Of a DNA stretch of 64,000 nucleotides, positions 11,589 to 30,124 are shown piece after piece. Made by a program: the position numbers and the translations under genes. Source of the DNA: a virus; IMG/VR virus record IMGVR_UViG_3300028394_000040. One strand, written 5' to 3'. The notes below the pieces were generated by a model. The model was not told the origin of the DNA. It made no database searches and saw only the letters and a list, made by a program, of their open reading frames with translations. Each line of letters opens with the position of its first letter. Position 1 is the stretch's first letter.

Positions 11589-11912
11589 CTACACTTCTTC
11601 TAAAATACCATCTTTAGCAAGTAGTATTAACCTAGGATGTAACGATGTTCCTTTTTTAACTAAAACTGTGTTACCTACTCTATACTGCACTCCTTCTATA
11701 ATGGCATCTTTTAAAAATCTTACTTGACGAGTAGTTTCTTCGTATGGAAATAACTCGTTTAGATACTCCCTACGTTCCTTACATCCACAACCTTCAGCTC
11801 CTGCTAACTTAGCTACAGCATCAGCTAATCTATCTATTCCTAGAAAGTTAGTTACTTTTGCTATAGAATCTCCAAAGCCAGTAGAAGGTTTAGTAGAATC
11901 AAAATCGTTCAT
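11589..11912 (-). CDS. Hypothetical protein with GCGC motif
   Basis: GFGDSIAKVT..GCGCKERREYLN. Confidence 0.7.
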   Translation of the reverse strand: MNDFDSTKPSTGFGDSIAKVTNFLGIDRLADAVAKLAGAEGCGCKERREYLNELFPYEETTRQVRFLKDAIIEGVQYRVGNTVLVKKGTSLHPRLILLAKDGILEEV

Positions 11913-11914
11913 TA

Positions 11915-12460
11915 TTATCTCTGTCTATCGTATTGAAATTGTCCGTTGTAAAGATTCTCTACAGCTACTTCATCGCAATGGTGAAAGTAAATTTGAGCAA
12001 CTCTAGCATCACACTCTATAAATAGCGTACAGTTAACTGTGAGAATACATCCCATGTTCGATGTTTCGAAACCAGGGTCAAAAACAGAACTATGCATTAC
12101 AGCTCCATTCCTTAATAAAGAAGATCTTTGACGAATAAAACCTGCTAGATTAGAAGGTATTTTGCACCCTTCCCAAAACGTAATATCATACACTCCTTCG
12201 TAAAGTAAATAACCTTCTTTACCTTCTATCTTCTTGGTCTCAACAGGTCTGTATACATTCAACTCAGTCTTATCTTTAAAAATAAAACCTATCTGCGGTT
12301 GATTAGAAATGTAATGTCTCGGGTCAGAAATATTCCAATTGACATTACCTATAGCATTAATCGACTTAACTGATAAGTCGTAACCTACTTGTGCTGGTTT
12401 ACCTTTGCTATCCTCTAACTTAAGTATACCTTTTTCTATTATTTGTTCGGCGTTTAACAT
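11915..12460 (-). CDS. Trimeric dCTP deaminase/dUTPase family protein
   Basis: GYDL, RSSLLRNG, FDPGF, RVAQI, YNGQFQ; likely start at 12460. Confidence 0.85.
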   Translation of the reverse strand: MLNAEQIIEKGILKLEDSKGKPAQVGYDLSVKSINAIGNVNWNISDPRHYISNQPQIGFIFKDKTELNVYRPVETKKIEGKEGYLLYEGVYDITFWEGCKIPSNLAGFIRQRSSLLRNGAVMHSSVFDPGFETSNMGCILTVNCTLFIECDARVAQIYFHHCDEVAVENLYNGQFQYDRQR

Positions 12461-12464
12461 TTGC

Positions 12465-13109
12465 TTAATTTTTAGTTTTATAAAGCGCAACAGATGAACA
12501 CATTTCTAAGAAATACTCTTCAGTCCAATTAGACTTTAATTTATTAATATCCTTATGAACCCATTGTACGTTACCAGTAATGTAACCTTTAGTACTGTCT
12601 ATCCTATCTAAAGACGCCGTATTTTTTTGATATCCGTTTTTATTTAAACTACCTAAAGATACGTCCAAAACTATATCGAAACCTGACAATGCACATATTC
12701 CTCTTTGTTTTTCAAATAATTCCCAGATCTCTTCTATTTTAACTGAAAATTCTAAATTCCTACTTTTAGCTCCGTTTTGAATAACTCGCCACATATCACC
12801 TGATATGTCTTTATAACCTTTCCAAATTTTCGATCTCCTTAGTACTCTCTGTTCTACATTTTCGAACTGTTTATACGCGGTAAGTTTTCTAGTTTCAATT
12901 AACTTTATTGCTTTCTCTTCTCCATACCTTTCGATATAGGATTTACCTTTGCTAAATTTTGAAATTGCTTCTACTGTTTCTCTAGAAGTCATTTTTGCGT
13001 TTGGAAACAGCCTTAAATATTCAGCCAACTCTAACCCGTGTTTATCCCTTAAATGAGTATTAGTAACTTTCTTAAATTTAACTTTACATATATTGCATGT
13101 TACCATCAC
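12465..13109 (-). CDS. Free-standing His-Me (HNH/EndoVII-like) endonuclease with N-terminal Zn finger
   Basis: CNIC..THLRDKHG; QRGICALSG..SLDRIDSTKGYITGNVQWVHKDINKLK. Confidence 0.75.
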   Translation of the reverse strand: MMVTCNICKVKFKKVTNTHLRDKHGLELAEYLRLFPNAKMTSRETVEAISKFSKGKSYIERYGEEKAIKLIETRKLTAYKQFENVEQRVLRRSKIWKGYKDISGDMWRVIQNGAKSRNLEFSVKIEEIWELFEKQRGICALSGFDIVLDVSLGSLNKNGYQKNTASLDRIDSTKGYITGNVQWVHKDINKLKSNWTEEYFLEMCSSVALYKTKN

Positions 13110-13153
13110 TTTCTTTCTATATAAATAGTGGTGTTAACACACAAAACGAAAAC

Positions 13154-13864
13154 CTACTCAGAAATTTTATAACTTCTCGTAAACTCATAGAATTCTGCTC
13201 TTGCTGAATCTTCATCTAAGAAGCATCCTGATAGTTTTGCTGTTTTCATGGATGCTCCGTGATGTTTGACACCCCTGCAGGAAACACATGCATGAGTCGC
13301 TTCGATCAAAACGGCTACACCTTGATTCCCTTCGCAGATTTTATTTACTGCATTGTGAATAGCTACTGTTAACTGCTCTTGGATAGCGCCTCGTCTCCCA
13401 AAGTTCTCAACGATTCTATTAAGCTTTGATAAGCCTACTACCCTACCGTTTTCAGAAGCAATATATGCTATATGTACTTTACCTTTTATTAAGCCGTGAT
13501 GATGACTACACATAGAAACCAGTGGAATACCGCCCTCAAAAACGATTCATGTATATCCATCGCTAGGGAATGCAGTAACTTTATCTAAAGGTTCATAACG
13601 ACCAGCCCATAAATGATTAACGTAGGCTTTAGCTACTCGATGAGGAGTTTCGGATGAGTTTGGATCGTTTTCCCAATCACATCCTAAAGCAGATAAGAAC
13701 CAACCGAACGCTTCAGCAGCATCTTCGATAATTATTTGCTTATCTAAATCAGTTAAACGAGCTTCAGGGCCGTTAATTGCTTGTTTGGCTGCCAATTGCG
13801 TTGATATACCATTAGCGAATCCTGCTTGAACTAGTTCAGTTCCTTCAATAAATTTTTTTGACAT
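13154..13864 (-). CDS. folE: GTP cyclohydrolase I interrupted by an in-frame TGA at 13547-13549 (readthrough, pseudogene or sequencing error)
   Basis: ETPHRVAKAY..FPSDGYT*IVFEGGIPLVSMCSHHH..GLSKLNR..QEQLT..HACVSCRG; the two track ORFs are in the same frame. Confidence 0.9.
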
Positions 13865-13869
13865 TTGTG

Positions 13870-13896
13870 TTTGTTTTTAAGTGGTGCTACGACACT
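13870..13896 (-). promoter_or_regulatory. preQ1-I-like riboswitch aptamer upstream of folE
   Basis: AGTG-TCGTAGCAC-CACT-TAAAAA-CAAA, ending 5 nt before the folE ATG; class I preQ1 pseudoknot layout. Confidence 0.6.
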
Positions 13897-13917
13897 ACAT
13901 AACCGAAAGTAAAGTTA

Positions 13918-14340
13918 TTACTTTTTTAAATAATCTTGTATAGTTTCTGAATCTTTATTTTCCCAAGGGAAAACTATCCATGCATTAGAATCAATTGACT
14001 CTGCATAATATTCTGGAATATATTTAGAATTAGTTCTCCAAAGTAGGCTTGCAGTAGTAAATCCACAGTAATGAAAATCTACAAAAGTTTGACCAGAATC
14101 GCATATGTCATCAATAAGCAATGTCTTAGCCCTAATGTCTTCCTTTAACATTATAGCATCTTCTACAGATAAAAATTCTATACCAAGCTTATGTGATAGG
14201 AGTACTGCCGGTATTAATCCACCTCTAGCAGGACCTGTAACATACTTCAAATTTTTATTTAACAATACCCATTTTTCGATAGCATATATGTACTCCTCTA
14301 CTCCCGACCATGACAGGTGAATTTTATCTGGTGTTTCCAT
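13918..14340 (-). CDS. Type I phosphoribosyltransferase (xanthine/guanine PRT-like)
   Basis: ARGGLIPA, LLIDDICDSGQTF, WIVFPWE. Confidence 0.88.
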   Translation of the reverse strand: METPDKIHLSWSGVEEYIYAIEKWVLLNKNLKYVTGPARGGLIPAVLLSHKLGIEFLSVEDAIMLKEDIRAKTLLIDDICDSGQTFVDFHYCGFTTASLLWRTNSKYIPEYYAESIDSNAWIVFPWENKDSETIQDYLKK

Positions 14341-15194
14341 TATACATTAAGTATGCGATCCCAAGCTGAAATGTGCAAACGAGTCAAGCCTGTAAATTTA
14401 TATTTCTTAGCCATTTCCAATACAAATTGAGTACGCTCATGAAAATCATCCTGACTGTCTAGACCTGGCATACAAACTACATTCTTTAAAGGAATGTTAA
14501 ATGGCTCAACGAAATCGCGGAATACTTCTTTAACATCTTCTTCATTAGAGATAACAAACTTAAATTGATAGTTTTGATGCTTCATTATCTGCTCTATAAC
14601 TTCTGGCTTAATACGCTGCTTTACAGTCATACCTGAGTTCTCTAATTTAGGAGAGCAATTAATTTGAGTTAGCCGTACGAACATATCCGGTGAAAATTCT
14701 ACAGTACCGTTAGTTTCAATTTCATTATAAACAAGAAAATCTACTTTTAATAAACCATTACTATAGGATTCGTACTTTGCCCAGTAGTCAATAAAGTTTA
14801 TAATAGCTTCTTGATGTTTTTTCATTGCGGGTTCTCCACCTGTCCAAATTAAATGGATAGTTCCATTTAAAATATCATCGTAGATACCTTGCTCTTTCCA
14901 AGTATCTATTAAGTATTGGAAGTCTTTATTTTCCCCTCTCCATGCCCATTGTGAAGTACTATCACAAGTCCATGTTGCTTTACCTTCTAATTCTAAATCT
15001 CCTTTAAAGATTTCACCATCGGCAAGTTCTTTGCCGTTAATTAAGTTCTTTAAAAATCTAGTAGACATACCACAAGTCAAGTTACACAAACCTAAACGGA
15101 TAAAGTAAGAAGGTACTCCTGTAGATTTTCCTTCGCCCTGTACTGAGTAGAAGTCAGAACTTATTAATAATTTGTTAGGATCTATAGTAGACAT
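14340..15194 (-). CDS. queE: 7-carboxy-7-deazaguanine synthase (radical SAM)
   Basis: FYSVQGEG, FIRLGLCNLTC..WTCDS, TGGEP, IETNG, SPKL, RLH. Confidence 0.9.
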   Translation of the reverse strand: MSTIDPNKLLISSDFYSVQGEGKSTGVPSYFIRLGLCNLTCGMSTRFLKNLINGKELADGEIFKGDLELEGKATWTCDSTSQWAWRGENKDFQYLIDTWKEQGIYDDILNGTIHLIWTGGEPAMKKHQEAIINFIDYWAKYESYSNGLLKVDFLVYNEIETNGTVEFSPDMFVRLTQINCSPKLENSGMTVKQRIKPEVIEQIMKHQNYQFKFVISNEEDVKEVFRDFVEPFNIPLKNVVCMPGLDSQDDFHERTQFVLEMAKKYKFTGLTRLHISAWDRILNV

Positions 15195-15195
15195 A

Positions 15196-15384
15196 TTATT
15201 CGTTGTTAATTTTTTTGTAGACTGAGTTGGTAATGGCTAAAGCCCAAATAGCTAAAAGAACTCTCCACCAAATAGACCAATTAGCTATATTTAAATCCCA
15301 ATTTATAAAGGAAATAATAACATAAGGAATAAATGTTGAGGCAAGAATTAAAATAACATAAGCTAGGAAAGGTAATTTTTTCAT
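15196..15384 (-). CDS. Small two-TM membrane protein
   Basis: Two hydrophobic segments; likely start at 15384. Confidence 0.6.
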   Translation of the reverse strand: MKKLPFLAYVILILASTFIPYVIISFINWDLNIANWSIWWRVLLAIWALAITNSVYKKINNE

Positions 15385-15388
15385 CGAA

Positions 15389-15853
15389 TTAAGGAATGTA
15401 TATTGCTGAATTTCTATCGTTTTCAAAGAATTCTACTTTTGTAACTTGGACTCTTCCTGAGGTCTCTTCTATAACAAAAGGATTAACCTTGCTATAAATA
15501 AACTCAGCGAATTTCTCTGCACCTACATCCGGGAGTAGTCTTAACTGTATTACTCCTAGACCGTCCATAGTTTTGTACCCATTTATACCTGGATCGTCTT
15601 CTGCTACTAAACAAGTATGGTCAAACATATAGTCCATCCACTCTTTAGGATTCTTACCATCTATAGTACCTTTAGCTCTTTTCATGCCGCCAAAATCCCA
15701 TACCCAATTTCGCTCATCTAAATCTCCTTCAAACCATAAACGAAAAGATATACCATATCCATGTATAAATTTACAATGAGTGCCTTCGGCTCTCCACTGA
15801 CGGAAAATAGTACTGTATCCGTCAAACAGCTTTGTTGAAATAAACTTTGCCAT
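15389..15853 (-). CDS. queD: 6-carboxytetrahydropterin synthase
   Basis: CKFIHGY, WDFG, FDH, AEKFAEFI, EFFE. Confidence 0.88.
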   Translation of the reverse strand: MAKFISTKLFDGYSTIFRQWRAEGTHCKFIHGYGISFRLWFEGDLDERNWVWDFGGMKRAKGTIDGKNPKEWMDYMFDHTCLVAEDDPGINGYKTMDGLGVIQLRLLPDVGAEKFAEFIYSKVNPFVIEETSGRVQVTKVEFFENDRNSAIYIP

Positions 15854-15862
15854 AATTTTAAA

Positions 15863-16372
15863 TTAAAGGTATTTACTTATTATATCTAATCTCTCCTCAA
15901 CTGACCCTGTTACTTTAATAATTTTTTCAGTCGGTATATGTTTTTCCATAAAGCTTACTATAACAGCGTCTACTTTATTTTGTAACTCCTCGTTAAGTCT
16001 ATCCGGGTCGTAAACAAATCCGAATTCAATAGGAATATAAAAAAAATGTTCTACCTGTTCCTGTGTTTGGTCAAACAACTTAACCATCTCCGATGTATCC
16101 ATCGTAGGATTAATAATTTGGGTATACAAAATACAGTCTACAATACTTCTAGTCGAGATCACGTACTTATGGGAAAGGTAATTTTGATAAGCCCAAGTCG
16201 ATAACTCATTGATTACTAATTGCTTTTCGTAATCAGAGAAGTCTAACTGCTTAGCTATCTTAAATACAGGTCTAGAAAACCCGTCTGTTACATAATAGTT
16301 AGCAAATTTTTCACTAACAGCTTTTAACAACGTACTCTTACCTACACCATGACTTCCTAATAAGATTTTCAT
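15863..16372 (-). CDS. P-loop nucleotide kinase (AAA_28/NMP-kinase-like)
   Basis: N-terminal Walker A GSHGVGKST; TRSIVD; GSVEERL. Confidence 0.75.
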   Translation of the reverse strand: MKILLGSHGVGKSTLLKAVSEKFANYYVTDGFSRPVFKIAKQLDFSDYEKQLVINELSTWAYQNYLSHKYVISTRSIVDCILYTQIINPTMDTSEMVKLFDQTQEQVEHFFYIPIEFGFVYDPDRLNEELQNKVDAVIVSFMEKHIPTEKIIKVTGSVEERLDIISKYL

Positions 16373-16962
16373 ACTTCGAATTCTAAATTTTCTACGGTCT
16401 CTTTTCCTAAAGGTAGTAATTTTGATTTAAGTAAAAAAGTAATCCAACAAGTAAATGATGTACTTTTTAGAATATCATACATACTATCTAAGGATCTAGC
16501 TATATTACTAGTACTGCATTGCATTACTATATCCCCCTCATCTACTCCTTCTGTTACTTTATGAACTACCGAACCGACCTCTCTATACTTACCTTCCCAT
16601 GCCTTAATTTGTGGGTCTTTACCTTTTAATTCCGGATATGAACTAATTAAACCAGGATGGCCGTTGTAGATACTTCCTTTAAAGTTCTTGATAAAAGATG
16701 CAGGTAAAATTCTGAGATATCCGTGTAACGTTATTAAATTACAATTATTTAAAATTTCACTATGATAACTCTCTTCTGTAGGCCTAAAAGGCAGTTTAAC
16801 TATTTCTACATTATTTTTCTTGAAAAATTTTAAGGAATTAGCAGATAATTTATTAAAGTTATTAGTTAACAAATATCCAGGAGTTATATTTAATGCATTG
16901 CATACTTCTACTACTTCCGAACCTGTTTGTGATACAAATACTGCCCATTTAGAAACTTTCAT
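16369..16962 (-). CDS. PurN-like formyltransferase (DpdN-like, predicted preQ1 formyltransferase)
   Basis: FVSQTGS, LHGYLRIL, NGHPGL, VHKVTEGVDEG; directly downstream of queF. Confidence 0.82.
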   Translation of the reverse strand: MKVSKWAVFVSQTGSEVVEVCNALNITPGYLLTNNFNKLSANSLKFFKKNNVEIVKLPFRPTEESYHSEILNNCNLITLHGYLRILPASFIKNFKGSIYNGHPGLISSYPELKGKDPQIKAWEGKYREVGSVVHKVTEGVDEGDIVMQCSTSNIARSLDSMYDILKSTSFTCWITFLLKSKLLPLGKETVENLEFEV

Positions 16963-16963
16963 T

Positions 16964-17869
16964 CTATTGTCCTTGTGCTTTTTTAGTATAAAATCCAACA
17001 TTTTTTAATGCAGAAGAGATTAACATAGTAGATGATGCCCTGACTGGATTAATATCTAATGAACCACGTCTAGCGTATAATAACATAACTGAACATTCAT
17101 GGACTAAAGGGTTTTTCATTATTTCCAAGTATAACTTTTCACAGCAGAATTCATGGAATTCATTTACTTCTCTTAAAGATATAACTAATTTTAATAATTC
17201 CTTACCGTATACCGAACCTCTTTTAGTTATAATTTTAAAATAAGCAGCACCTGTATCTTTTTGCTTTGTATGTCTACATCTAGAACGAAGAACATTAGTA
17301 AAAGATTTGTTAACCTCTCCTAGCGGATCATCGTCAATAATAATATTATACGATTCTTGAGAGTTATAATCTGTTATTACTAAATTCTGTAATTCAGCTA
17401 GACTAACCGACTTATATAAATCTCGATATCCTTCACCTGGGTCTCTTTCATATATTTTATCTTCTCCAGAACTAAAAAACTTCACCTCGACGTCTGCACC
17501 AATACATTTGCTTATATCTAGTATGACTTGATTCTCATAATTCTCTATAGCTTCTTCAAAAGTAGAGCCCATCTTACACATATCAAAAGAATTTAAATAT
17601 AATTTAAAGCTTTTTGATTCAACCATAAATTCTGAATTAGCCGGACAAATAATTTTTAACGTTCCTGCTACTGGTAAGCCATTATTTAACAAAAACGTAG
17701 CTTCATGACAATGCCAAACATCATAACCTACAAACTCATTTCCGGTAATACCCCAATCACCTCTGGCTGCTGCCCTTGGCATTGGATTTAATAATGATGC
17801 ATCGAATTTATCAGTATAAATTGCATAGGAGTTCTCTGAACCTAGAGACTTACTAGCAAATTCATTCAT
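16964..17869 (-). CDS. queF: NADPH-dependent preQ0 reductase, bimodular type
   Basis: QueF motif ESKSFKLY; catalytic SRCRHTKQKD; FHE; YARRGSLDINP. Confidence 0.92.
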   Translation of the reverse strand: MNEFASKSLGSENSYAIYTDKFDASLLNPMPRAAARGDWGITGNEFVGYDVWHCHEATFLLNNGLPVAGTLKIICPANSEFMVESKSFKLYLNSFDMCKMGSTFEEAIENYENQVILDISKCIGADVEVKFFSSGEDKIYERDPGEGYRDLYKSVSLAELQNLVITDYNSQESYNIIIDDDPLGEVNKSFTNVLRSRCRHTKQKDTGAAYFKIITKRGSVYGKELLKLVISLREVNEFHEFCCEKLYLEIMKNPLVHECSVMLLYARRGSLDINPVRASSTMLISSALKNVGFYTKKAQGQ

Positions 17870-17870
17870 A

Positions 17871-18656
17871 TTACCACTTGACATAGTTCTTAAAAGTTTT
17901 TACGTTTTTATAAATTAATTCTATTTGTTCTTTTTCTAATTTAGTATCTAAATTATCTGCAAGTTTTAAACTAGGTTTTGGTGCTAGTAAGCCATGTTCT
18001 GTAAACTCATTACCTACCCATCCGTTAATAATAGGAGAACTAGTATCTATAGAGTAGATGTAATCAGCTACGGACTGCCCTTTAAATAATTCAAATTCAA
18101 CTGGGTTTAGAGTACCTAGTAAATGAATTTTTAATGCTATAGCCTCATGCAGTTTAAATTTATGCTTATACCACCATTGTAAAAATCTGAATCTTACGGT
18201 AACATAATCAGACTTTTCTATTAAGTCAAAAGGTAAAGCTATAATGTCTATATCTTCACTTAGAAAATAGGACATACAGCTATAAATTTCGTCAAAAGTA
18301 TCTCCTTGGCATACTCCCATATACTTTTGGTCTTTAACTTTATACTTAGCTAAATACTCCTTTGCATTATCTAATGTAACTCTATAGTCATTAACCTTAT
18401 CAGGTAAAACCAAATGTGTTGGTTTATACTCATTACATAATTCAGCTAATTCTTCTAATGGTATAGACTCACCTAATTCAAAAGCAGAATTATCTAAAAT
18501 AGAATAAGAAGATGATGCTAGTTTATTTTTATAAAAGTCTGCATACTCCTTATCCTTATTAAGTAAATGACCTAATACATAAGGGTAATCACTAATTTTA
18601 TCATGCTCACTGAATAACTGCTTAGGAATTTCGTGAGATACTAAAGGTCTTCTCAT
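17871..18656 (-). CDS. TGT-fold transglycosylase (DpdA-like, probably DpdA3 type)
   Basis: ILDNSAF (cf. DSGAF), VCQG, IHLLG, SIDTSSP; lies between queC and queF. Confidence 0.65.
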   Translation of the reverse strand: MRRPLVSHEIPKQLFSEHDKISDYPYVLGHLLNKDKEYADFYKNKLASSSYSILDNSAFELGESIPLEELAELCNEYKPTHLVLPDKVNDYRVTLDNAKEYLAKYKVKDQKYMGVCQGDTFDEIYSCMSYFLSEDIDIIALPFDLIEKSDYVTVRFRFLQWWYKHKFKLHEAIALKIHLLGTLNPVEFELFKGQSVADYIYSIDTSSPIINGWVGNEFTEHGLLAPKPSLKLADNLDTKLEKEQIELIYKNVKTFKNYVKW

Positions 18657-18660
18657 ATAC

Positions 18661-19554
18661 TTACTTCGCATATTCGGCTAGTACTTTCTCTACTGATGCT
18701 CTAGCTACATCCCAGCTAACAGGTCCTGTTTCATCTGCATATGCCACCGGATCTGGACGTCCTAAACGAATAAATGCTTCTATACGTTCTACTGATGCTG
18801 CTGATTTATAATCAGAATACCAGTTACCTATCTTCCATCCTTCACTTGTAGGTTGATCTTGTATAAAAATTGGCTTATAAGATGTATTAGTACGTTTATA
18901 TACCTCATTAAAATTTAAACCTAATTTCTCACAAGCTACTAACCCATCTTCTAAAATTTCAAATTTGCTTACTTCTAGATACGGAGTATAGTGGTATACT
19001 AATTCAGAATCCCAATTACCTACTTTAAATGCCTCAAAATCAGCATCACGAAACTCTTGACGACAGTCAGGGTAAATAGCATGATCTCCAGCGTGAATAC
19101 CCATTGCGATAGCTACTTCTTGCTTATCGCCTTTAGTTGCTACAGATAATGCAGCGGCTTGAATTAAAGAAGCGAAAATCTTATTACGATTAGGTACGAC
19201 AGTTTCTTTCATGTTGTCTTGCTCATAATGTCCTTCTGGAACTTCATCACCTCCTGTAACTAAAGCAGAATGTAGTAAGTTTTGTAATCCATCTAATTTA
19301 ATGATTTGATGTTTTACTATAGGATATGCTTCTTCAAATCCACCGAATACATGGTCAGTATGAGTAATTCTCATAGGATTTGTATTAATGTATTCTACTA
19401 AAGATTTAGCCCGGTCTAATTCAACACGGTGTTTTTGACCGTAATCAAACCCTAATGCGGTAACTTCATAGCCGTTAGCTAATAAATGAAGTAATAAAGT
19501 AGAGGAATCCATCCCTCCGCTGAGTGATAAAACTGCTTTTTTTGTACTAAACAT
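18661..19554 (-). CDS. queC: 7-cyano-7-deazaguanine synthase
   Basis: SGGMDS, FDYGQKH, VPNRN, HAIYPDCR. Confidence 0.93.
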   Translation of the reverse strand: MFSTKKAVLSLSGGMDSSTLLLHLLANGYEVTALGFDYGQKHRVELDRAKSLVEYINTNPMRITHTDHVFGGFEEAYPIVKHQIIKLDGLQNLLHSALVTGGDEVPEGHYEQDNMKETVVPNRNKIFASLIQAAALSVATKGDKQEVAIAMGIHAGDHAIYPDCRQEFRDADFEAFKVGNWDSELVYHYTPYLEVSKFEILEDGLVACEKLGLNFNEVYKRTNTSYKPIFIQDQPTSEGWKIGNWYSDYKSAASVERIEAFIRLGRPDPVAYADETGPVSWDVARASVEKVLAEYAK

Positions 19555-19574
19555 ATAACTTTATTTATAAAATT

Positions 19575-19616
19575 AAGACGTATTATTTTATTGATCGATT
19601 AGTCCCGGTAACCGAT
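19575..19616 (-). promoter_or_regulatory. Candidate H-type pseudoknot in the queC leader
   Basis: ATCGGTTA/TAATCGAT stem; loop GGGAC complementary to downstream GTCTT after an A-rich linker. Confidence 0.35.
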
Positions 19617-20062
19617 TAGAATAACTCTCTAATTACTGAACTTTTTACTGGCAGACAGTATAAATCCTTATTTCTACCTACTCTTTTAAGCTCTCTTCCT
19701 TGAACGTAATTTCTCATTTCTTTAAGAGAGTATTCGTAGCATTTATTATTTTCAATATCATAAGTTAAAATTTTATCAGCCTGGGAGGTATAAAACCATC
19801 CTGGCATTCCTGAAGGAGATTTTTCTACTTCTAAAAAAGTAAAACCATTTCTCACATTAGTTTTTATATCGGCCCTATCCCATTCCTTGGTAACTGCATT
19901 ATAATATTCAATATCATATCCTTTCAACTGCTTATGCTTGAAAGTATCAAAATCGTTCGTATAGTCTTTAATCTCATAGCCTCTTGTTGTCATTTCTGCT
20001 ATAACATTAATTTCTCCTGATCTACCTTTTTGGTAGTTTACCGATAACTCAAATTTGCTCAT
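19616..20062 (-). CDS. PD-(D/E)XK restriction-endonuclease-like protein
   Basis: GRSGE..GYDI..ADIKT..FLEV..GWFYTSQAD. Confidence 0.55.
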   Translation of the reverse strand: MSKFELSVNYQKGRSGEINVIAEMTTRGYEIKDYTNDFDTFKHKQLKGYDIEYYNAVTKEWDRADIKTNVRNGFTFLEVEKSPSGMPGWFYTSQADKILTYDIENNKCYEYSLKEMRNYVQGRELKRVGRNKDLYCLPVKSSVIRELF

Positions 20063-20079
20063 TTTGTTAGTTTTAAAGT

Positions 20080-21795
20080 TTAACCACCACAGCTTAAACA
20101 GTCTTCAGAAGTTCTACTTCCAATATCACCGTTAATAACCGAATCGGTCCTTATATAATATAACGTTTTAACTCCTAATTTCCAAGCTGTTTGATGTACT
20201 AAATTAATAAATCTAGGATTATCTGTTGGATCAAAGAACAAATTTAGTGATTGAGCTTGGTCTATATACCTCTGCCTTACAGCTGCCTGCTCAACAAGGC
20301 CTAGCTGGTTTATTTCTACTGCGGTTAAAAAAACTTCTTTATCATCTGCAGGCATAACCTCTTCAGGTAGATTAGCTATAGATCCTCTATCTTTCATAAT
20401 CTGATCCCATACCTCTTCAGTATTATGCCCTCTGTTCTCTAAGTACTTAGATAATTCATCATTACGTCTGATAAAAGTACCTTTAGGTCCATTAAAAGTG
20501 TAAATATTAGCTATTACAGGTTCAATACCTGCAGATACTCCTCCTGAGATTGTAGCATTAGATAATGTAGGTGCGATAGCTATTAGATGCGAGTTTCTCA
20601 TACCTGTACCTTTACACCAAACAGGCTCTCCGTATTCGTTAGCTAACTTTCTTGAAGCTGCTTCTGCTTGAGATTTTATCTGAGAGAAAATAGTATTTGT
20701 ATAAGAGGTAGAAGCTATCGATAAGAAAGGAATTTCTTTAGATTGTAAGAATGTATGCCATCCTAAGACTCCTAATCCTAATGCTCGTCCTTTCTTAGCT
20801 GATCTATGAGTTCTAATCATTGATTCTTTACCGTTAGTTTTAGCTAGGAATTCTTCTAATACTCCATCAAGGAAGTAAATAGAAGTTTCAATTAAATCAG
20901 AATCTTTCCATTCGTCATACTTTGCTAAGTTAACAGATGATAAGCAGCAAATAAAGCTATGTTCTTCGTCGGTATGTAAAGCAATTTCAGTACAGATGTT
21001 AGTCATAGTAACATCTAGGTTATTCTTTACATAAGCAGGAGGATTTACTTTATTAACGTTATCCTTATACATTACGAAAGGCTCACCTGTCTCTATTCTA
21101 GTTTTTAAAATTTCTATCCACAACTCCATAGCTTCTGGATCTCTATGCTCTAACTTAAGCATAAATTTATCATCTACTACAACGCATTGGTGTAAATTTA
21201 AACATTGACGATTGGGGTCTCCTTTAGGTCGCCTAATCTGCAAAAACTCCTTTATATCTGGGTGATTAATATCTAGATTAACCGATGATGCACCTCTACG
21301 TACAGTTCCTTGATTAGTAGCTATAATAGTAGAATCATAAATCTTAGCCCAAGGTACAACACCTTCTGACTGACCTAATCCTTCTTTACCTATTTTAATT
21401 CCTCTTCCTCTAATTCTAGATAAACTAATACCTACCCCACCACCAACTGAGGTTAGTTTCATTAACTCAGCGTTAGTTAAACCTATACCTCTTATAGAAT
21501 CTGGTGTATCTATACCAAAACATGAAATAGGTAAGCCTCTATCCGTACCTGTATTAGCTAGTACTGGAGAGGCTAGACATAACCATCCTTTCCACATATA
21601 CTTATAAAACTTAGCAGCCAGGTCCGGACGATCTAATCTCATAGCTACTGCATCAGATACTCTCTTATAAGCCTTCTTTGGAGTCTCAAGTGGAAGTAGA
21701 TAGTCTTTTGATATAGTGGCTAAAGATATTTCATTCATCCATTCAGGATAATCTTTTCCAGCTTCCCATCCGTATATGTCTAGTATAGTATTCAT
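20080..21795 (-). CDS. nrdA: Class I ribonucleotide reductase alpha subunit (no ATP cone)
   Basis: PISCF, TNICTEI, AIAPT, DQAQSLN, KTLYYIR, C-terminal CLSC. Confidence 0.95.
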   Translation of the reverse strand: MNTILDIYGWEAGKDYPEWMNEISLATISKDYLLPLETPKKAYKRVSDAVAMRLDRPDLAAKFYKYMWKGWLCLASPVLANTGTDRGLPISCFGIDTPDSIRGIGLTNAELMKLTSVGGGVGISLSRIRGRGIKIGKEGLGQSEGVVPWAKIYDSTIIATNQGTVRRGASSVNLDINHPDIKEFLQIRRPKGDPNRQCLNLHQCVVVDDKFMLKLEHRDPEAMELWIEILKTRIETGEPFVMYKDNVNKVNPPAYVKNNLDVTMTNICTEIALHTDEEHSFICCLSSVNLAKYDEWKDSDLIETSIYFLDGVLEEFLAKTNGKESMIRTHRSAKKGRALGLGVLGWHTFLQSKEIPFLSIASTSYTNTIFSQIKSQAEAASRKLANEYGEPVWCKGTGMRNSHLIAIAPTLSNATISGGVSAGIEPVIANIYTFNGPKGTFIRRNDELSKYLENRGHNTEEVWDQIMKDRGSIANLPEEVMPADDKEVFLTAVEINQLGLVEQAAVRQRYIDQAQSLNLFFDPTDNPRFINLVHQTAWKLGVKTLYYIRTDSVINGDIGSRTSEDCLSCGG

Positions 21796-22421
21796 TAAAT
21801 TTTATTTTTGTACTGTTCTACTTTTTTTGTAAATATCTTATTCTGTTCAGTTTCCGAAAAATTTTTACAGTATTTAGTAATAAATTGCCTTGCTAATTGT
21901 TCTGGAGGTTTTGGCTTTCCGGTCCAAGATGGCTTTCTTCCTTTTAGTGTCGCTGAAATTGCTGCTCTTACCTCTAATCTTTTTGCAGGATTATTAATTC
22001 CTGTTTTCGTTCCCTTTAGCGAATCACTCTGCTTCTCTCTCCTTTCTACTGCCCCCTTTACTCCTAATAGTTCCTCCCAAGTCTTACCTTTCAGTGCTTT
22101 TGATATCTTAGCTCGTACTTCTACTCTTTTTGTAGGATTTTCTTCACCTATTGCAAATCCTGTTGCTAAGTTTTTCTTATTATAGCTATCTGGATTCTGC
22201 ATTGCTTTCACTTCAGTTAATATTTCTGATTCCTTTTCCCTAAAATAGATTCCCTCATATAGAATTTCTCTAGCAAAATTAACGAGTCCATGCTCCCTAA
22301 ATGCTTTCTTAATATCTGTACCGCTAGCGGTATACTTGTCTCCAGCTGTTCCTTTATGTGATCCAATATACCACTTTCCATTGAGGTTATTGGTCCATTT
22401 GTAAACTATTCCTGTTTTCAT
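21795..22421 (-). CDS. GIY-YIG (Seg-like) homing endonuclease with NUMOD3-like repeats
   Basis: GIVYKWTN..YIGSH..SYN; repeated EVRAKISKALKG; sits between nrdB and nrdA. Confidence 0.85.
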   Translation of the reverse strand: MKTGIVYKWTNNLNGKWYIGSHKGTAGDKYTASGTDIKKAFREHGLVNFAREILYEGIYFREKESEILTEVKAMQNPDSYNKKNLATGFAIGEENPTKRVEVRAKISKALKGKTWEELLGVKGAVERREKQSDSLKGTKTGINNPAKRLEVRAAISATLKGRKPSWTGKPKPPEQLARQFITKYCKNFSETEQNKIFTKKVEQYKNKI

Positions 22422-22554
22422 AATAAAAAAAGCTTAGGCTTTCGAGGTCGTAGTACCTACTACCGTAAGCTTTGGTTGATATTTTATCTACAATTGAAGC
22501 TACGACTCTCCATATCTATATAATAACTTTTAGTAGTATCTCTTACTAGCTTAG

Positions 22555-23538
22555 TTAGAAAACAGCAGAAGAGTCCCACGACATATGACCTTTTGAATAA
22601 TTTGTTACTCTATTCGCAAAAAAGTCTGTTTGCTGTTTACCAGCTATAACAGCATCAAACCATTTCATAGTCTTTAATGCTCCTTTATCTATTTCGCTAG
22701 AAGGTATTAAAGGTTTTAAACCTAAATCTCCCATCTTAGTATTTACTCTATGTTTAATAAAGTTTTTTAAGTCTTCCTTAGATAAATTCTCTAAATCGCC
22801 CATTTCAAAAACTTTATCGATAAAATCGAATTCCAATTTAATAGCTAGTCTAGCAGCAGTCTCTATTTCGTCTATTAATATAGGTGAAAGTAGTTTAGGA
22901 TTTTCACCAACAAGCTCTCTAAATAACCAACAACCAGCTTCTGAATGTAATGATTCGTCTCTTACTGACCATTCTACTATTTGGCCTACTCCTTTAAGTT
23001 TATTTCTCATCTTAAAAGAGAGTAAAACAGCGAAAGAAGAAAATAAGTTTACTCCTTCTGTAAATGCTGAAAAGATAGCTAGAGATTTAGCAATTTCATG
23101 CCAGTCTTTTTTACCATCATGACTACTTGCAACATTCATTAAAGACTGTATTTTAGCTTTTGTTGCTTCATCTTCCATAAACTCAGCAAAGTTATCTAAG
23201 CCTAATTGTTCGTTTAAAAGAGAATATGCTTCAGCATGAATAGTTTCAAAGGAACCAAAGGTAGTAGCCATCATAATGACTTCCGGCTTTCTAAACCATT
23301 TTGTTACTAACCCAGTCCAATAATCATTAACTACAGTTTCCGTCTGGGCAAAGCCTTTTAAAATTCCTCCTATAACGTTCTTTTCGTTATCTTTTAAATT
23401 TGAATTCCAATCTGTTATATCTTGGGACATCGGCACTTCAGTATGAAGCCAATGTGCTTGCTGCTGTTTTAACCAGTAATCATATGCCTTAGGATACTCA
23501 AAAGGCTTATAGACAACTCGTTCTTCGATTAAACTCAT
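22555..23538 (-). CDS. nrdB: Ribonucleotide reductase beta subunit
   Basis: YKPFEYP, ETIHAEAY, EGVNLFSSF, DESLH, DFFANRVTNY. Confidence 0.95.
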   Translation of the reverse strand: MSLIEERVVYKPFEYPKAYDYWLKQQQAHWLHTEVPMSQDITDWNSNLKDNEKNVIGGILKGFAQTETVVNDYWTGLVTKWFRKPEVIMMATTFGSFETIHAEAYSLLNEQLGLDNFAEFMEDEATKAKIQSLMNVASSHDGKKDWHEIAKSLAIFSAFTEGVNLFSSFAVLLSFKMRNKLKGVGQIVEWSVRDESLHSEAGCWLFRELVGENPKLLSPILIDEIETAARLAIKLEFDFIDKVFEMGDLENLSKEDLKNFIKHRVNTKMGDLGLKPLIPSSEIDKGALKTMKWFDAVIAGKQQTDFFANRVTNYSKGHMSWDSSAVF

Positions 23539-28305: not shown

Positions 28306-28740
28306 CTAAGCTTTTACAGTAGCTTCTACTATACTGTGCACTTTAGTATGGATTTTTCTTAAATCCGGACCTTGTGTTAGTAGAACTGTATTTTTGAAGT
28401 CTGGCCAAACTATACGATAATTTGGATCTAAAACACCACCGTTTAATTCTTTAATCAAAAGATTAAGTGCGTTAATGGTGTACAGAGTATTAGTTTCCTT
28501 TTTACGATGCAAAAGGATTGTATTAGGTAATATCTTGAAACTGGAATTATTTGGGTCAATATTATACGTACATAAAAACTCGTCTGAATCTGGTGACTCT
28601 AAAACGAATACTTTATCGTATAATATAGTGTAATGGCTCTTTATCCCTTCTAGTATTGAATCTAAATCTTCTTTTGGGGAGAAAGTACAGAACAGTTTGT
28701 TCATAATTTCCTGTAACGTGAATTCTTTTTCTACTATCAT
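28306..28740 (-). CDS. Conserved hypothetical phage protein
   Basis: LFCTF, TYNID, HRKKETNTLYTINALN; true start may be 28704. Confidence 0.75.
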   Translation of the reverse strand: MIVEKEFTLQEIMNKLFCTFSPKEDLDSILEGIKSHYTILYDKVFVLESPDSDEFLCTYNIDPNNSSFKILPNTILLHRKKETNTLYTINALNLLIKELNGGVLDPNYRIVWPDFKNTVLLTQGPDLRKIHTKVHSIVEATVKA

Positions 28741-30056
28741 AAATAGTTTGTTTTTCTAAGAGAGTTATAATTTGAGCCGTACTTAACTTTACTAGTTAAG
28801 CCTTTTTTGTATATGATATCTTTAATCGTCGTTAAAACTTCCTTTCCGTCTTCAAAATTAAAATCAATAAGAATAGAATCATACACCACTAAAGTTATAA
28901 AACTTTTCTTGTCTTTCAAATAATCTTGTATACTCTCTAGTAAAAACAGGTTACTAATTGTTTCACAATTTTGCAAATAATAATTAAAAAGCTTCTGTGG
29001 ATACATTCCCTCTATACTTCTCAATCTTCTACCGGTAGGTAAGTCAAGGTACCCATTTAAACTATACGTCTCCCATAATTGCTCAATGAATGCGCTTATC
29101 TTTTTGAAGAATGGTATATTCTTATAGTCATCGGAGATACCCCCGTAGATCTGTTTAAAACTAAGCTCTTTTGACTGCTTGTATTGATCTTCAGTTAATT
29201 CCTCTACGTTGAAATACATCCTACCTAAAACTGTATGTATAGATTCGGATGAGTTGAAATCAAACCGGATAAGTTTACTTATTAATTTAAGGTGGTATCC
29301 TTCAAAGTCGTACTCTACAAATGCATTATTAATAGGTAAGAATGCTTCTCTACAGCCATTATCTTTATTTAATGCTAAAAAATTTACTGTATTAAATGAG
29401 TTGGTAGGTCTACCGGTAATGTTATGTAGGTTGTAATAAGAATAAAGTAATCCATCGTGGATAGAGTAGGGCTTCCATTTAGTTTCAAAGTACTTATCTA
29501 ATATTTTTTCATCTACTCTAATTCCTCTACATTCAATACTTCTGTATACTTTCTCTATTCTCTTAACTACCGAACCTGTCCCTTCTTCCTTCATGTAGGG
29601 CTTTACTTTTTCATAAAGGCATTCTGATTTTTCATATAGTTTAGAAATAGGTATTACTCTATTTAAGTCCTTCTTGTGGTAAAGCCTAGTATAAAGATCT
29701 CTTTGTATTTTCGTATCGCAATATAAATCAGGTAACTTAGATATCTCATCTATCATTATCTGGGAAAGGTCTTGTAAGTTATCTGTAGTAATATAGTATC
29801 TGGTAAGTTTACTATCTAAACAGAATACTCTGTCGTGATTATCTAAAAAAGCTTGTATTTCAAGAATAGGTAAGCTTAATGCTTCGGAATGATTTACTGG
29901 GAGAATATAGCCTTTCTGTCTGTTATGGTAGTATAAAACAGATATAGAATTAATAGCAGGATGGAAATTGTCGTTTAATGTTATAATATCTATAAAACAG
30001 TCTTCACTTGGTTTTAACTTAGCTAACTGTTCTGATGTTTCAACGATATAATACAT
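28737..30056 (-). CDS. Second, divergent family A polymerase-like protein
   Basis: TGRPTN; motif A YDFEGYH, motif B KELSFKQIYG, motif C VYDSIL; degenerate exonuclease; likely start 30056 (alternative 30107). Confidence 0.8.
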   Translation of the reverse strand: MYYIVETSEQLAKLKPSEDCFIDIITLNDNFHPAINSISVLYYHNRQKGYILPVNHSEALSLPILEIQAFLDNHDRVFCLDSKLTRYYITTDNLQDLSQIMIDEISKLPDLYCDTKIQRDLYTRLYHKKDLNRVIPISKLYEKSECLYEKVKPYMKEEGTGSVVKRIEKVYRSIECRGIRVDEKILDKYFETKWKPYSIHDGLLYSYYNLHNITGRPTNSFNTVNFLALNKDNGCREAFLPINNAFVEYDFEGYHLKLISKLIRFDFNSSESIHTVLGRMYFNVEELTEDQYKQSKELSFKQIYGGISDDYKNIPFFKKISAFIEQLWETYSLNGYLDLPTGRRLRSIEGMYPQKLFNYYLQNCETISNLFLLESIQDYLKDKKSFITLVVYDSILIDFNFEDGKEVLTTIKDIIYKKGLTSKVKYGSNYNSLRKTNYL

Positions 30057-30057
30057 G

Positions 30058-30124
30058 AACCTTAATTTAGTAAGAATATAACCGATTAATTTAAAACCTT
30101 TGAACATAAACCTTAATTTAGTAA
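30058..30124. repeat. 16-bp direct repeat, each copy just upstream of an in-frame ATG
   Basis: aaccttaatttagtaa at 30058-30073 and 30109-30124. Confidence 0.85.

What the first reader, a model, noticed from the sequence alone, without database searches (positions are those of the whole stretch)
13154..23538. Deazaguanine cluster with the parts for a nucleotide-level (pre-replicative) route to formyl-preQ1 DNA
Seen: folE, queD, queE, queC, queF, a PurN-like formyltransferase and a TGT-fold protein, interleaved with a purine PRTase and a P-loop kinase, directly downstream of nrdAB. Known: FolE-QueD-QueE-QueC-QueF make preQ1, and a PurN-like DpdN with a DpdA3-type protein is reported for Flavobacterium phage DNA carrying formyl-preQ1. 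Inference: PRTase or the TGT-fold enzyme, then kinase, RNR and polymerase supply a modified dGTP for extensive G replacement, instead of base exchange on finished DNA. The PRTase and kinase roles are the untested part.
Basis: partly seen in the sequence, partly recalled or inferred. Interest (0 to 1): 0.72.

Follow-up and report, generated by a model that had tools for sequence, protein, structure and literature searches.

The report
Phage formyl-preQ1 DNA operon with kinase
A phage operon for replacing guanine in DNA with a formylated 7-deazaguanine, known from one cultured relative, always carries a nucleotide kinase beside its base-swapping enzyme, which suggests the modified base is built into nucleotides before replication rather than swapped into finished DNA as published.

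Summary
On the minus strand, downstream of nrdB/nrdA, lie queC, a DpdA3-type TGT-fold gene, queF, a PurN-like DpdN, a TMPK-like P-loop kinase, queD, queE, an XGPRT-like PRTase and folE. The junctions are tight or overlapping. One caveat: folE carries an in-frame TGA.

The backbone resembles Flavobacterium phage immuto_2-6A, whose DNA has every G replaced by formyl-preQ1, so the cluster is a new member of a known kind.

The new result is comparative:
- The kinase accompanies DpdA3 in 34 of 34 metagenomic loci with enough flank, and in immuto and CP220.
- Other DpdA3-like lineages carry different kinases: AAA_18, phrog_761, T4 gp1-like DNMK, and a fused T7 gp1.7-like DUF3310 domain.
- Seven DpdA1 control clusters have no kinase.
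- PRTase homologues occur in only 27 of 50,697 phage records. All but one small unannotated fragment carry deazaguanine genes, and 25 carry a DpdA3-like gene.
- A 100%-complete relative lacks the PRTase, and RNR adjacency is rare.

The PRTase and RNR parts are weaker. A nucleotide-level route is the likeliest mechanism (about 0.5), but no test here separates DNA from nucleotide substrates.

The parts
22555..23538 (-). nrdB, RNR small subunit
   Evidence: PF00268, 4.6e-65. 82% aa identity to immuto.
21795..22421 (-). GIY-YIG/NUMOD3 homing endonuclease inserted between nrdB and nrdA
   Evidence: Pfam NUMOD3 and SegE_GIY-YIG. About 760 bp that are absent from the near-identical contig L004.
20080..21795 (-). 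nrdA, RNR large subunit
   Evidence: PF02867, 1.7e-100.
19616..20062 (-). 148-aa ORF, possibly a PD-(D/E)xK-type nuclease; not a core part
   Evidence: No Pfam or PHROG hit. It occupies the position of immuto gp011, annotated as a Hjc-like endonuclease. Conserved in 5 loci.
18661..19554 (-). QueC (preQ0 synthase)
   Evidence: PF06508, 4.7e-37. 61% identical to immuto.
17871..18671 (-). DpdA3-type TGT-fold transglycosylase
   Evidence: Model pLDDT 94; Foldseek finds TGT and DpdA. tblastn finds immuto, CP220 and phiST DpdA3. Invariant D60 and D209 in motifs shared with DpdA1.
16964..17884 (-). QueF, bimodular preQ0 reductase
   Evidence: TIGR03138, 7e-51; QueF_N plus QueF.
16369..17001 (-). DpdN, PurN-like formyltransferase (the true start may be the ATG at 16962)
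   Evidence: PF00551, 2e-15. N-x-H and D catalytic motifs align to PurN structures. Invariant SQTGSE loop. 42.5% identical to immuto DpdN.
15863..16372 (-). TMPK-like P-loop nucleotide kinase; ATGA overlap with dpdN
   Evidence: phrog_2107 and AAA_28. Model pLDDT 89.5; best folds are thymidylate and deoxynucleoside kinases. Present in 34 of 34 flanked loci.
15389..15853 (-). QueD
   Evidence: PF01242, 1e-12. 69% identical to immuto.
15196..15426 (-). 76-aa hydrophobic ORF of unknown role
   Evidence: No family hit. Sequence shown.
14340..15194 (-). QueE, radical-SAM CDG synthase
   Evidence: phrog_2076, 2.4e-39; TIGR03963.
13918..14340 (-). XGPRT-like purine phosphoribosyltransferase
   Evidence: phrog_8995, 1.8e-18. 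PDB matches 1vdm, 4z1o and E. coli XGPRT, with the PRPP motif. Homologues in only 27 phage records.
13154..13864 (-). folE (GTP cyclohydrolase I), interrupted by an in-frame TGA at 13547-13549
   Evidence: 77% identical to immuto FolE when read through; Gly at the TGA site in immuto and in L004.
12465..13109 (-). HNH homing endonuclease insertion
   Evidence: phrog_3322. Absent from L004.
11915..12490 (-). DCD/dUTPase-fold dNTP pyrophosphatase; possible accessory
   Evidence: PF22769, 5.6e-11. Nearest solved relative is the 'probable dUTPase' 9w59. Within 10 kb of DpdA3 in 26 of 34 loci.
11589..11912 (-). 107-aa conserved ORF of unknown function
   Evidence: Conserved next to the DCD-like gene in about 40 loci.
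9239..11554 (-). Family A DNA polymerase, which would take the modified dNTP
   Evidence: PF00476, 7e-62.

Best explanation
The region is one tightly packed operon of an immuto-like Flavobacterium phage. It replaces G in phage DNA with 7-(formylamino)methyl-7-deazaguanine (formyl-preQ1).

Supported by homology:
- DpdN is a PurN-type formyltransferase with its catalytic triad intact.
- DpdA3 is a TGT-fold glycosyl-exchange enzyme with both catalytic Asp motifs.

Inferred from comparative genomics: DpdA3 and the kinase work as a pair on free nucleotides.
1. DpdA3 exchanges guanine for the deazaguanine on a deoxyguanine mononucleotide (dGMP, or dGTP after pyrophosphatase action).
2. The dedicated kinase phosphorylates the unnatural dNMP, which the host guanylate kinase would handle poorly.
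3. Host NDK makes the triphosphate, and the phage family A polymerase incorporates it.
4. The XGPRT-like PRTase is an accessory. It most likely recycles the released guanine to GMP and then GTP for FolE. Alternatively it activates the deazaguanine base directly.

The folE nonsense codon means that this particular genome copy relies on host FolE, on read-through, or carries an error.
For: Gene identities. Immuto_2-6A has the same gene set, including PRTase gp211 and kinase gp203, and its DNA has 100% of G replaced by fdPreQ1.

Kinase and DpdA3:
- 34 of 34 IMG/VR loci with at least 4 kb on both sides have the kinase. All 17 loci without one end less than 1.5 kb after DpdA3.
- The kinase stays with DpdA3 where DpdN is absent, and in CP220, where the other pathway genes are scattered.
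- Compared with immuto, the block DpdA3-QueF-DpdN-kinase is 25-43% identical, while FolE, QueD, QueC, PolA and NrdAB are 61-82% identical.
- Unrelated kinases sit beside DpdA3-like genes elsewhere: AAA_18 in phiST, phrog_761 in Bacillus and Weizmannia phages, DNMK in Aeromonas, Vibrio and Brevundimonas phages, and a fused DUF3310 domain in Rhizobium phage RHph_I1_18. DUF3310 was implicated in the nucleotide-kinase activity of T7 gp1.7 (PMC10700055).
- Seven DpdA1 clusters have no kinase. In six of them DpdA lies just upstream of the sliding clamp and polymerase genes.

NTP pyrophosphatase or HD-domain genes lie beside DpdA3 in phiST (MazG), immuto (PRA-PH family) and CP220 (HD).

PRTase homologues occur in 27 of 50,697 phage records. 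25 of them are DpdA3-like phages.

Literature:
- DpdA3 could not be made to work alone in E. coli.
- The free ADG nucleoside was seen in CP220-infected cells.
- A modified-dGTP route was once proposed for Campylobacter phages.
Against: - No computation here distinguishes a DNA substrate from a nucleotide substrate.
- DpdA3 shares its fold and both Asp motifs with DpdA1 and bacterial DpdA, which act on DNA.
- The related DpdA2 modifies plasmid DNA in E. coli without a phage kinase.
- The kinase family also occurs in 89 Streptomyces phage records. In the one read, Jay2Jay, no deazaguanine gene is annotated within 7 kb. It could therefore be a general dNMP or dTMP kinase.
- In T4-like phages, DNMK next to a DpdA-like gene may only reflect clustering of nucleotide-metabolism genes.
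- Many metagenomic loci are close relatives, so the 34 of 34 count is not 34 independent events.
- No dGTP-removing enzyme was identified in this window.
- The published view is post-replicative insertion.
Confidence: 0.5

Rival explanations
1. Post-replicative insertion, as published. DpdA3 flips out every G in finished or nascent phage DNA and replaces it with preQ1 or formyl-preQ1. The PRTase and kinase only recycle the released guanine (guanine to GMP to GDP to GTP) to feed FolE, or act as general nucleotide-supply enzymes.
For: - DpdA3 has the TGT/DpdA fold and catalytic motifs.
- All DpdA enzymes tested so far act on DNA, and DpdA2 works in E. coli without a phage kinase.
- The PRTase is XGPRT-like and usually lies next to FolE or QueE.
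- The kinase family also exists outside deazaguanine phages.
- In Bacillus phages DpdA3 abuts the DNA polymerase gene.
Against: - It does not explain why a kinase is always present with DpdA3 and absent from DpdA1 clusters, although DpdA1 phages replace up to about 30% of G and also consume GTP.
- The substituting kinases are of deoxynucleotide types: T4 gp1-like DNMK and the T7 gp1.7 domain. They are not guanylate-kinase-fold enzymes.
- MazG, PRA-PH or HD genes beside DpdA3 fit removal of a dNTP pool.
- DpdA3 alone failed in the E. coli DNA assay.
Confidence: 0.33
2. A PRTase-first ribonucleotide route. The PRTase joins the (formyl-)preQ1 base to PRPP, the kinase makes the diphosphate, phage NrdAB reduces it, and NDK and the polymerase finish. 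DpdA3 would be auxiliary, for example cleaning up residual G.
For: - PRTase homologues are restricted to deazaguanine phages and are present in all three cultured lineages with total G replacement.
- The PRTase lies near RNR in this window, in phiST and in Brevundimonas phage MaInes.
- Own knowledge, not checked here: the toyocamycin and tubercidin pathways use a PRTase (ToyH, TubE) on 7-deazaguanine bases.
Against: - A PRTase lies within 10 kb of DpdA3 in only 3 of 34 loci, and none was found in a 100%-complete 181-kb relative that has DpdA3, DpdN and the kinase.
- RNR adjacency is seen in 2 of 34 loci.
- The route leaves the universally conserved DpdA3 without a necessary role.
- PRTase specificity could not be read from the sequence.
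Confidence: 0.13
3. The kinase is an ordinary thymidylate or dNMP kinase, and the PRTase an ordinary salvage enzyme. Both would sit in a nucleotide-metabolism neighbourhood by chance, with no specific link to the modification. The cluster may even be inactive because folE is broken.
For: - The kinase is annotated as, and folds like, a thymidylate kinase.
- nrdAB, a dUTPase-like gene and PolA are neighbours.
- folE carries a stop codon.
Against: - The kinase is embedded inside the operon with overlapping junctions.
- It keeps its place next to DpdA3 across lineages that share little else, and is replaced by other kinase types in the same position.
- PRTase homologues are found in no phage outside deazaguanine lineages among 50,697 records.
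- Both halves of folE are 77-79% identical to immuto, so the break is recent or an error.
Confidence: 0.04

Closest known systems
[quoted passage not shown]
   Same: It has the same gene set: FolE, QueD, QueE, QueC, QueF, DpdA3, DpdN, plus a PRTase and a 'thymidylate kinase'. The backbone is the same (nrdAB 82%, PolA 63%, FolE 77-79% aa identity).
   Different: Here the genes form one compact operon directly after nrdAB. In immuto, queC lies about 12 kb from the main cluster, and nrdAB lies more than 20 kb from it. The DpdA3-QueF-DpdN-kinase block is a divergent version (25-43% identity) with a different gene order. The window has no MazG/PRA-PH gene, folE carries a TGA, and two homing endonucleases are inserted.
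Campylobacter phage CP220 (dADG) and Cellulophaga phage phiST (dDG), both DpdA3 phages with complete G replacement
   Same: Each has a DpdA3 homologue with a small nucleotide kinase next to it and a PRTase homologue in the genome.
   Different: The final bases differ, and neither has QueF or DpdN. Their kinases are phrog_2107 in CP220 and AAA_18 in phiST. An HD or MazG gene lies beside DpdA3, and the PRTase is located elsewhere.
DpdA1 systems (phage 9g and other Queuovirinae)
   Same: They have preQ0 genes plus a TGT-fold DpdA with the same Asp motifs.
   Different: DpdA1 is longer (about 300-320 aa). It lies just upstream of the sliding clamp and polymerase genes, has no kinase or PRTase, and gives partial, sequence-dependent replacement.
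Pre-replicative hypermodification pathways such as T4 hmC (gp56 dCTPase, gp42, gp1 dNMP kinase) and Z-genome phages (MazZ, DatZ, PurZ)
   Same: They share the proposed logic: a dNTP pyrophosphatase or hydrolase, a base-modifying enzyme acting on a dNMP, and a dedicated dNMP kinase. T4 gp1-type DNMK is found next to DpdA-like genes in some phages. The comparison itself rests on own knowledge.
   Different: The modifying step here would be a base exchange by a TGT-fold enzyme, which has not been shown for any free nucleotide. No exclusion enzyme was identified in this window.
Toyocamycin and tubercidin biosynthesis (ToyH or TubE PRTase acting on preQ0 or CDG)
   Same: GTP is converted to a 7-deazaguanine base, which is then turned into a nucleotide by a PRTase. 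This is own knowledge, not tested here.
   Different: Those are bacterial antibiotic pathways that yield ribonucleosides, not DNA. Homology between the phage PRTase and ToyH or TubE was not tested.

Membership tests
DpdA3 subfamily of TGT/DpdA | Sequence similarity to the founders: phiST CGPG_00065, the Campylobacter phage homologue and immuto gp206 | tested here: met
   tblastn gives 32.6% identity to immuto (2e-28), 32% to CP220 (7e-22) and 25% to phiST (2e-5). The family HMM hits all three.
DpdA3 subfamily of TGT/DpdA | TGT-type (beta/alpha)8 fold with the two catalytic Asp motifs | tested here: met
   Model pLDDT 94. Foldseek finds TGT, ArcTGT and DpdA 7ui4 with TM 0.57-0.69. Invariant D60 (DNSAFE) and D209 (SIDTSSP) align with the DSGAF and DSSSW motifs of DpdA1. 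No Zn-site Cys or His is conserved.
DpdA3 subfamily of TGT/DpdA | Encoded together with 7-deazaguanine synthesis genes | tested here: met
DpdA3 subfamily of TGT/DpdA | Complete replacement of G in virion DNA, and base-exchange activity | not testable with these tools
   This needs LC-MS and enzymology. It has been reported only for the cultured relatives.
DpdN (preQ1 formyltransferase, PurN superfamily) | PF00551 domain with the N-x-H and Asp catalytic residues; similarity to immuto YP_010114479; co-encoded with DpdA and FolE to QueF | tested here: met
   PF00551, 2e-15. The motifs YNGHPG and VDEGD align to PurN. 42.5% identical to immuto DpdN. Present in 29 of 34 flanked loci.
preQ1 pathway (FolE, QueD, QueE, QueC, QueF) | All five enzymes encoded and intact | tested here: inconclusive
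   All five are present, but folE has an in-frame TGA. TGA is an ordinary stop elsewhere in the window.
Thymidylate/dNMP kinase-like P-loop kinases | Walker A motif, a DR-type substrate motif, a lid Arg, and an NMP-kinase fold | tested here: met
   GxxGxGK[ST], R75/D79/Y83, D122/R125 and R161 are conserved. The fold matches TMPK, dNK and NadR-RNK. Substrate specificity was not determinable.
6-oxopurine PRTase (XGPRT type) | PRPP-binding acidic motif followed by D-S-G-x-T; similarity to XGPRT and archaeal purine PRTases | tested here: met
   The LLIDDICDSGQT motif is present. Matches are 1vdm (7e-11), 4z1o, and E. coli XGPRT (3e-4). Base specificity was not determinable.
   No preQ1 family was reported at E<=1 over 13 kb, or at E<=10 over 121 bases. 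The motif is tiny, so this is weak negative evidence.

The most novel reading that the evidence does not exclude
DpdA3 enzymes are not DNA transglycosylases. They are the first TGT-fold enzymes that exchange the base on a free deoxyguanine nucleotide. Together with a dedicated dNMP kinase, and often a dNTP pyrophosphatase and a guanine-recycling PRTase, they form a pre-replicative pathway. That pathway feeds a 7-deazaguanine dNTP to the polymerase. This would explain why only DpdA3 phages reach 100% G replacement, and it would overturn the published post-replicative model.
Probability: 0.45. Interest if true: 0.85.

Novelty: new member of a known kind. Interest (0 to 1): 0.62.

Why it matters
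How some phages replace every guanine with a bulky 7-deazaguanine is unresolved. The only published proposal is base exchange on finished DNA by DpdA3, and it rests on homology; attempts to show DpdA3 activity in E. coli failed.

The comparative pattern found here turns that question into a few direct experiments:
- a kinase always accompanies DpdA3;
- other lineages carry unrelated kinases, in one case fused to the DpdA3-like domain;
- DpdA1 clusters have no kinase;
- the PRTase is confined to deazaguanine phages.

If the nucleotide-level route is right, it adds a new reaction type to the TGT superfamily. It would also offer an enzymatic route to 7-deaza-dGTP analogues. Finally, it would change how restriction evasion and polymerase tolerance are understood in these abundant aquatic phages.

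Tried and rejected
- **TGA as a sense codon.** TGA terminates 6 of 67 long ORFs, mostly in ATGA overlaps. The only tRNA in the window is tRNA-Met. The folE TGA is therefore a nonsense change or an error, not recoding.
- **Net charge and pI as a proxy for DNA binding.** DpdA3 and DpdA1 are both acidic, so this is uninformative.
- **hhalign of DpdA3 against DpdA1 profiles.** Probability was low (E 0.034). Only the motif correspondence was used.
- **Sequence search of DpdA3 against PDB.** Nothing was found; fold search was needed.
- **Search for a MazG, PRA-PH or HD gene in the window** with immuto, phiST and CP220 queries. None was found.
- **DCD-like gene as a dGTPase.** Its nearest solved relative is a probable dUTPase, so no claim is made.
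- **Search for DpdA3-kinase fusions among longer proteins.** Only intein-containing DpdA3 forms appeared. The Rhizobium fusion came from the phage records instead.
- **Sigma-70 promoter and terminator scan.** Counts were no higher than in shuffled sequence.
- **Rfam search for a preQ1 riboswitch.** Negative.
- **Own genome.** It is not held, so no whole-genome check of this phage was possible.

Full report
**What is there**

The window is phage DNA, about 34% G+C, with nearly every gene on the minus strand. Read in the direction of transcription, the region holds these genes:

| Gene | Coordinates |
|---|---|
| nrdB | 22555-23538 |
| GIY-YIG homing endonuclease | 21795-22421 |
| nrdA | 20080-21795 |
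| 148-aa ORF | 19616-20062 |
| queC | 18661-19554 |
| 266-aa TGT-fold gene | 17871-18671 |
| queF (bimodular) | 16964-17884 |
| PurN-like formyltransferase | 16369-17001 |
| P-loop kinase | 15863-16372 |
| queD | 15389-15853 |
| 76-aa hydrophobic ORF | 15196-15426 |
| queE | 14340-15194 |
| purine PRTase | 13918-14340 |
| folE | 13154-13864 |

After folE come an HNH endonuclease, a DCD/dUTPase-fold gene, a conserved 107-aa ORF and a family A DNA polymerase. From queC to the PRTase the junctions overlap or are only a few bases apart. Examples are the ATGA overlap between dpdN and the kinase gene, and the shared base between queE and the PRTase gene. The kinase and PRTase are therefore inside the operon, not merely near it.

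**Identity of the unnamed parts**

- **TGT-fold protein.** It has no Pfam or PDB sequence match. Its AlphaFold2 model (pLDDT 94.3) matches bacterial, archaeal and eukaryotic tRNA-guanine transglycosylases and the DNA preQ0 insertase DpdA 7ui4. TM scores are 0.57-0.69 at 11-15% identity.
- **DpdA3 assignment.** tblastn against 50,697 phage records finds 35 records. They include immuto gp206 (annotated DpdA), the Campylobacter CP220 group and the Cellulophaga phiST group, which are the founders of the DpdA3 subfamily. Two invariant Asp residues lie in motifs (DNSAFE, SIDTSSP) that align with the DSGAF and DSSSW motifs of DpdA1. No zinc-site residues are conserved.
- **Formyltransferase.** It keeps the PurN N-x-H and Asp catalytic residues and an invariant SQTGSE loop. 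It is 42.5% identical to immuto DpdN.
- **Kinase.** The model (pLDDT 89.5) is closest to thymidylate kinases, a mycoplasma deoxynucleoside kinase and the NadR ribosylnicotinamide kinase domain. It is thus a small-molecule nucleoside or nucleotide kinase.
- **PRTase.** It resembles archaeal purine PRTases and E. coli XGPRT, and has an intact PRPP motif.

**Relation to the known system**

Cui, Hutinet et al. (NAR 2023) showed that immuto_2-6A DNA contains no dG and 345,000 fdPreQ1 per million nucleotides. They assigned this to FolE through QueF, DpdA3 and DpdN, and proposed that insertion follows replication. Their main text does not contain the words 'kinase' or 'phosphoribosyl'.

The immuto cluster nevertheless contains both genes. 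Its order is QueD, QueE, PRTase gp211, FolE, a PRA-PH/MazG-family hydrolase gp208, DpdA3 gp206, DpdN gp204, 'thymidylate kinase' gp203 and QueF.

The window shares immuto's backbone: NrdAB 82%, FolE 77-79%, QueD 69%, PolA 63% and QueC 61% aa identity. Its DpdA3 (33%), QueF (39%), DpdN (43%), kinase (25%) and PRTase (36%) are far more divergent, and the gene order differs. That module has therefore been exchanged as a unit, kinase included. As a gene cluster this is a new member of a known kind.

**Co-occurrence test**

I fetched 80 IMG/VR loci with DpdA3 relatives (34-98% identity) and searched their ORFs iteratively with the window's proteins.

Among the 34 loci with at least 4 kb on both sides of DpdA3, the counts within 10 kb were:

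| Gene | Loci (of 34) |
|---|---|
| Kinase | 34 |
| QueE | 33 |
| QueF | 32 |
| QueC | 30 |
| QueD | 30 |
| FolE | 29 |
| DpdN | 29 |
| DCD-like gene | 26 |
| PRTase | 3 |
| nrdA | 2 |

All 17 loci without a kinase hit end less than 1.5 kb after DpdA3. The kinase stays with DpdA3 in lineages that lack DpdN. It also stays in CP220, where an HD plus P-loop protein, DpdA3 and the kinase are adjacent while the synthesis genes are scattered.

Other DpdA3-like genes carry a different kinase in the same place:

- AAA_18 in phiST, together with a MazG gene;
- phrog_761 'thymidylate kinase' directly upstream in Bacillus and Weizmannia phages;
- T4 gp1-type DNMK in the Aeromonas and Vibrio T4-like phages (these DpdA-like genes are probably DpdA2), and in Brevundimonas phage MaInes about 6 kb from its DpdA3-like gene;
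- in Rhizobium phage RHph_I1_18, a DpdA3-like barrel fused to a DUF3310 domain. The DUF3310 Pfam score is only just above threshold (24.2 against 24 bits), but PHROG 'nucleotide kinase' families agree. DUF3310 was implicated in the nucleotide-kinase activity of T7 gp1.7 (PMC10700055).

As controls I read seven diverse DpdA1 clusters: 9g, JG054, V07, Me-ZS1, RHph_X3_2, Cracklewink and Ssp-JY38. None has an annotated kinase or a small ORF with an N-terminal Walker A motif within 4 kb. In six of them DpdA lies just upstream of the sliding clamp and polymerase genes.

**The PRTase**

Its distribution is informative in a different way. Homologues occur in only 27 of 50,697 phage records:

| Lineage | Records |
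|---|---|
| Immuto phages | 4 |
| phiST group | 5 |
| CP220 group | 14 |
| Brevundimonas phages | 2 |
| Synechococcus phage | 1 |
| Unannotated 4-kb fragment | 1 |

The first three are the cultured lineages with complete G replacement. Where annotation exists, the gene lies next to QueE or FolE, or near RNR. Brevundimonas MaInes also has a DpdA3-like gene.

The PRTase is therefore tied specifically to deazaguanine metabolism. A 181-kb relative rated 100% complete has DpdA3, DpdN and the kinase but no PRTase, so the PRTase cannot be the universal entry step.

**Mechanism**

The homology-based part is as follows. [quoted passage not shown] A formyl group is added by DpdN. A TGT-fold enzyme carries out the glycosyl exchange.

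The inferred part concerns where that exchange happens. A dedicated dNMP kinase, often with a dNTP pyrophosphatase (MazG, PRA-PH or HD) beside the modifying enzyme, is the layout of known pre-replicative pathways such as T4 hmC (own knowledge). Kinases of unrelated folds recur next to DpdA3-like genes, including deoxynucleotide-type kinases and one fusion. This is hard to explain if DpdA3 works only on DNA.

I therefore favour this route:

1. A deoxyguanine nucleotide and the deazaguanine base react on DpdA3 to give the modified dNMP and free guanine.
2. The kinase phosphorylates the modified dNMP, and NDK makes the triphosphate.
3. PolA incorporates it.
4. The PRTase returns the released guanine to GMP, and so to GTP for FolE.

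Three points in the literature fit this. DpdA3 alone failed in the E. coli DNA assay. Free ADG nucleoside was seen in CP220-infected cells. A modified-dGTP route had been suggested for Campylobacter phages.

Against it:

- the fold and catalytic motifs are shared with enzymes that act on DNA;
- DpdA2 modifies plasmid DNA in E. coli without a phage kinase;
- the kinase family also occurs in 89 Streptomyces phage records, and in the one read no deazaguanine gene is annotated within 7 kb;
- many of the metagenomic loci are close relatives of each other;
- no dGTP-removing enzyme was found in this window.

I put the nucleotide-level DpdA3 route at about 0.5, the published DNA-level route with PRTase and kinase as guanine salvage at about 0.33, and the PRTase-first ribonucleotide route through RNR at about 0.13.

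**Defects and mobile insertions**

- folE contains an in-frame TGA at 13547-13549, a position where immuto and a 95-97% identical IMG/VR contig (L004) have Gly. TGA is a normal stop elsewhere in the window. The TGA is therefore a recent nonsense change or a sequencing error.
- L004 lacks both the GIY-YIG insertion between nrdB and nrdA and the HNH insertion after folE.
- folE itself is only 82% identical between the two contigs. That would fit co-conversion around a homing site, which is inference.

**Verdict**

The kinase link is strong and is not mentioned in the two main papers on phage 7-deazaguanines that I read.
- The PRTase is specifically associated with the pathway but is dispensable.
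- The RNR link is weak.
- The nature of the DpdA3 substrate remains open until the enzymes are assayed.

Noticed in passing
window 13547-13549: folE has an in-frame TGA where immuto and the near-identical contig L004 encode Gly. Both halves are otherwise well conserved, and TGA is a normal stop elsewhere in the window.
   Followed up: yes
window 21795-22582 and 12466-13188: A GIY-YIG homing endonuclease (between nrdB and nrdA) and an HNH homing endonuclease (after folE) are insertions absent from the 95-97% identical contig L004. folE, next to the HNH insertion, is only 82% identical between the two.
   Followed up: partly
P0121, P0122: Two DpdA3 homologues of 616-622 aa carry an intein with a LAGLIDADG endonuclease (PF14890, PF03161).
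   Followed up: no
L089:4926-6194 (Rhizobium phage RHph_I1_18): A DpdA3-like barrel is fused to a C-terminal DUF3310 domain (T7 gp1.7 nucleotide-kinase type). A DCD/dUTPase-fold gene follows it.
   Followed up: partly
By eye the sequence has a short hairpin and an A-rich tail, but no Rfam preQ1 model matches, even in a 121-base search.
   Followed up: partly
window 11589-11912: A 107-aa ORF with a CGC motif is conserved next to the DCD-like gene in about 40 related loci. Its function is unknown.
   Followed up: no
window 28737-30107: A second, short family-A-polymerase-like ORF (weak PF00476 hit) heads the SSB-RecA-FEN-DnaB block. It corresponds to immuto gp001.
   Followed up: no
window 4890-5306: An ORF with a cREC_REC domain (PF20274, 5.8e-23), the cyclic-phosphate processing receiver domain, in a phage genome.
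   Followed up: no
L097 (Streptomyces phage Jay2Jay 68249-68878): The same kinase family (about 30% identity to the immuto kinase) occurs in 89 Streptomyces phage records. In Jay2Jay no deazaguanine gene is annotated within 7 kb. A MazG gene lies about 4.5 kb upstream.
   Followed up: partly
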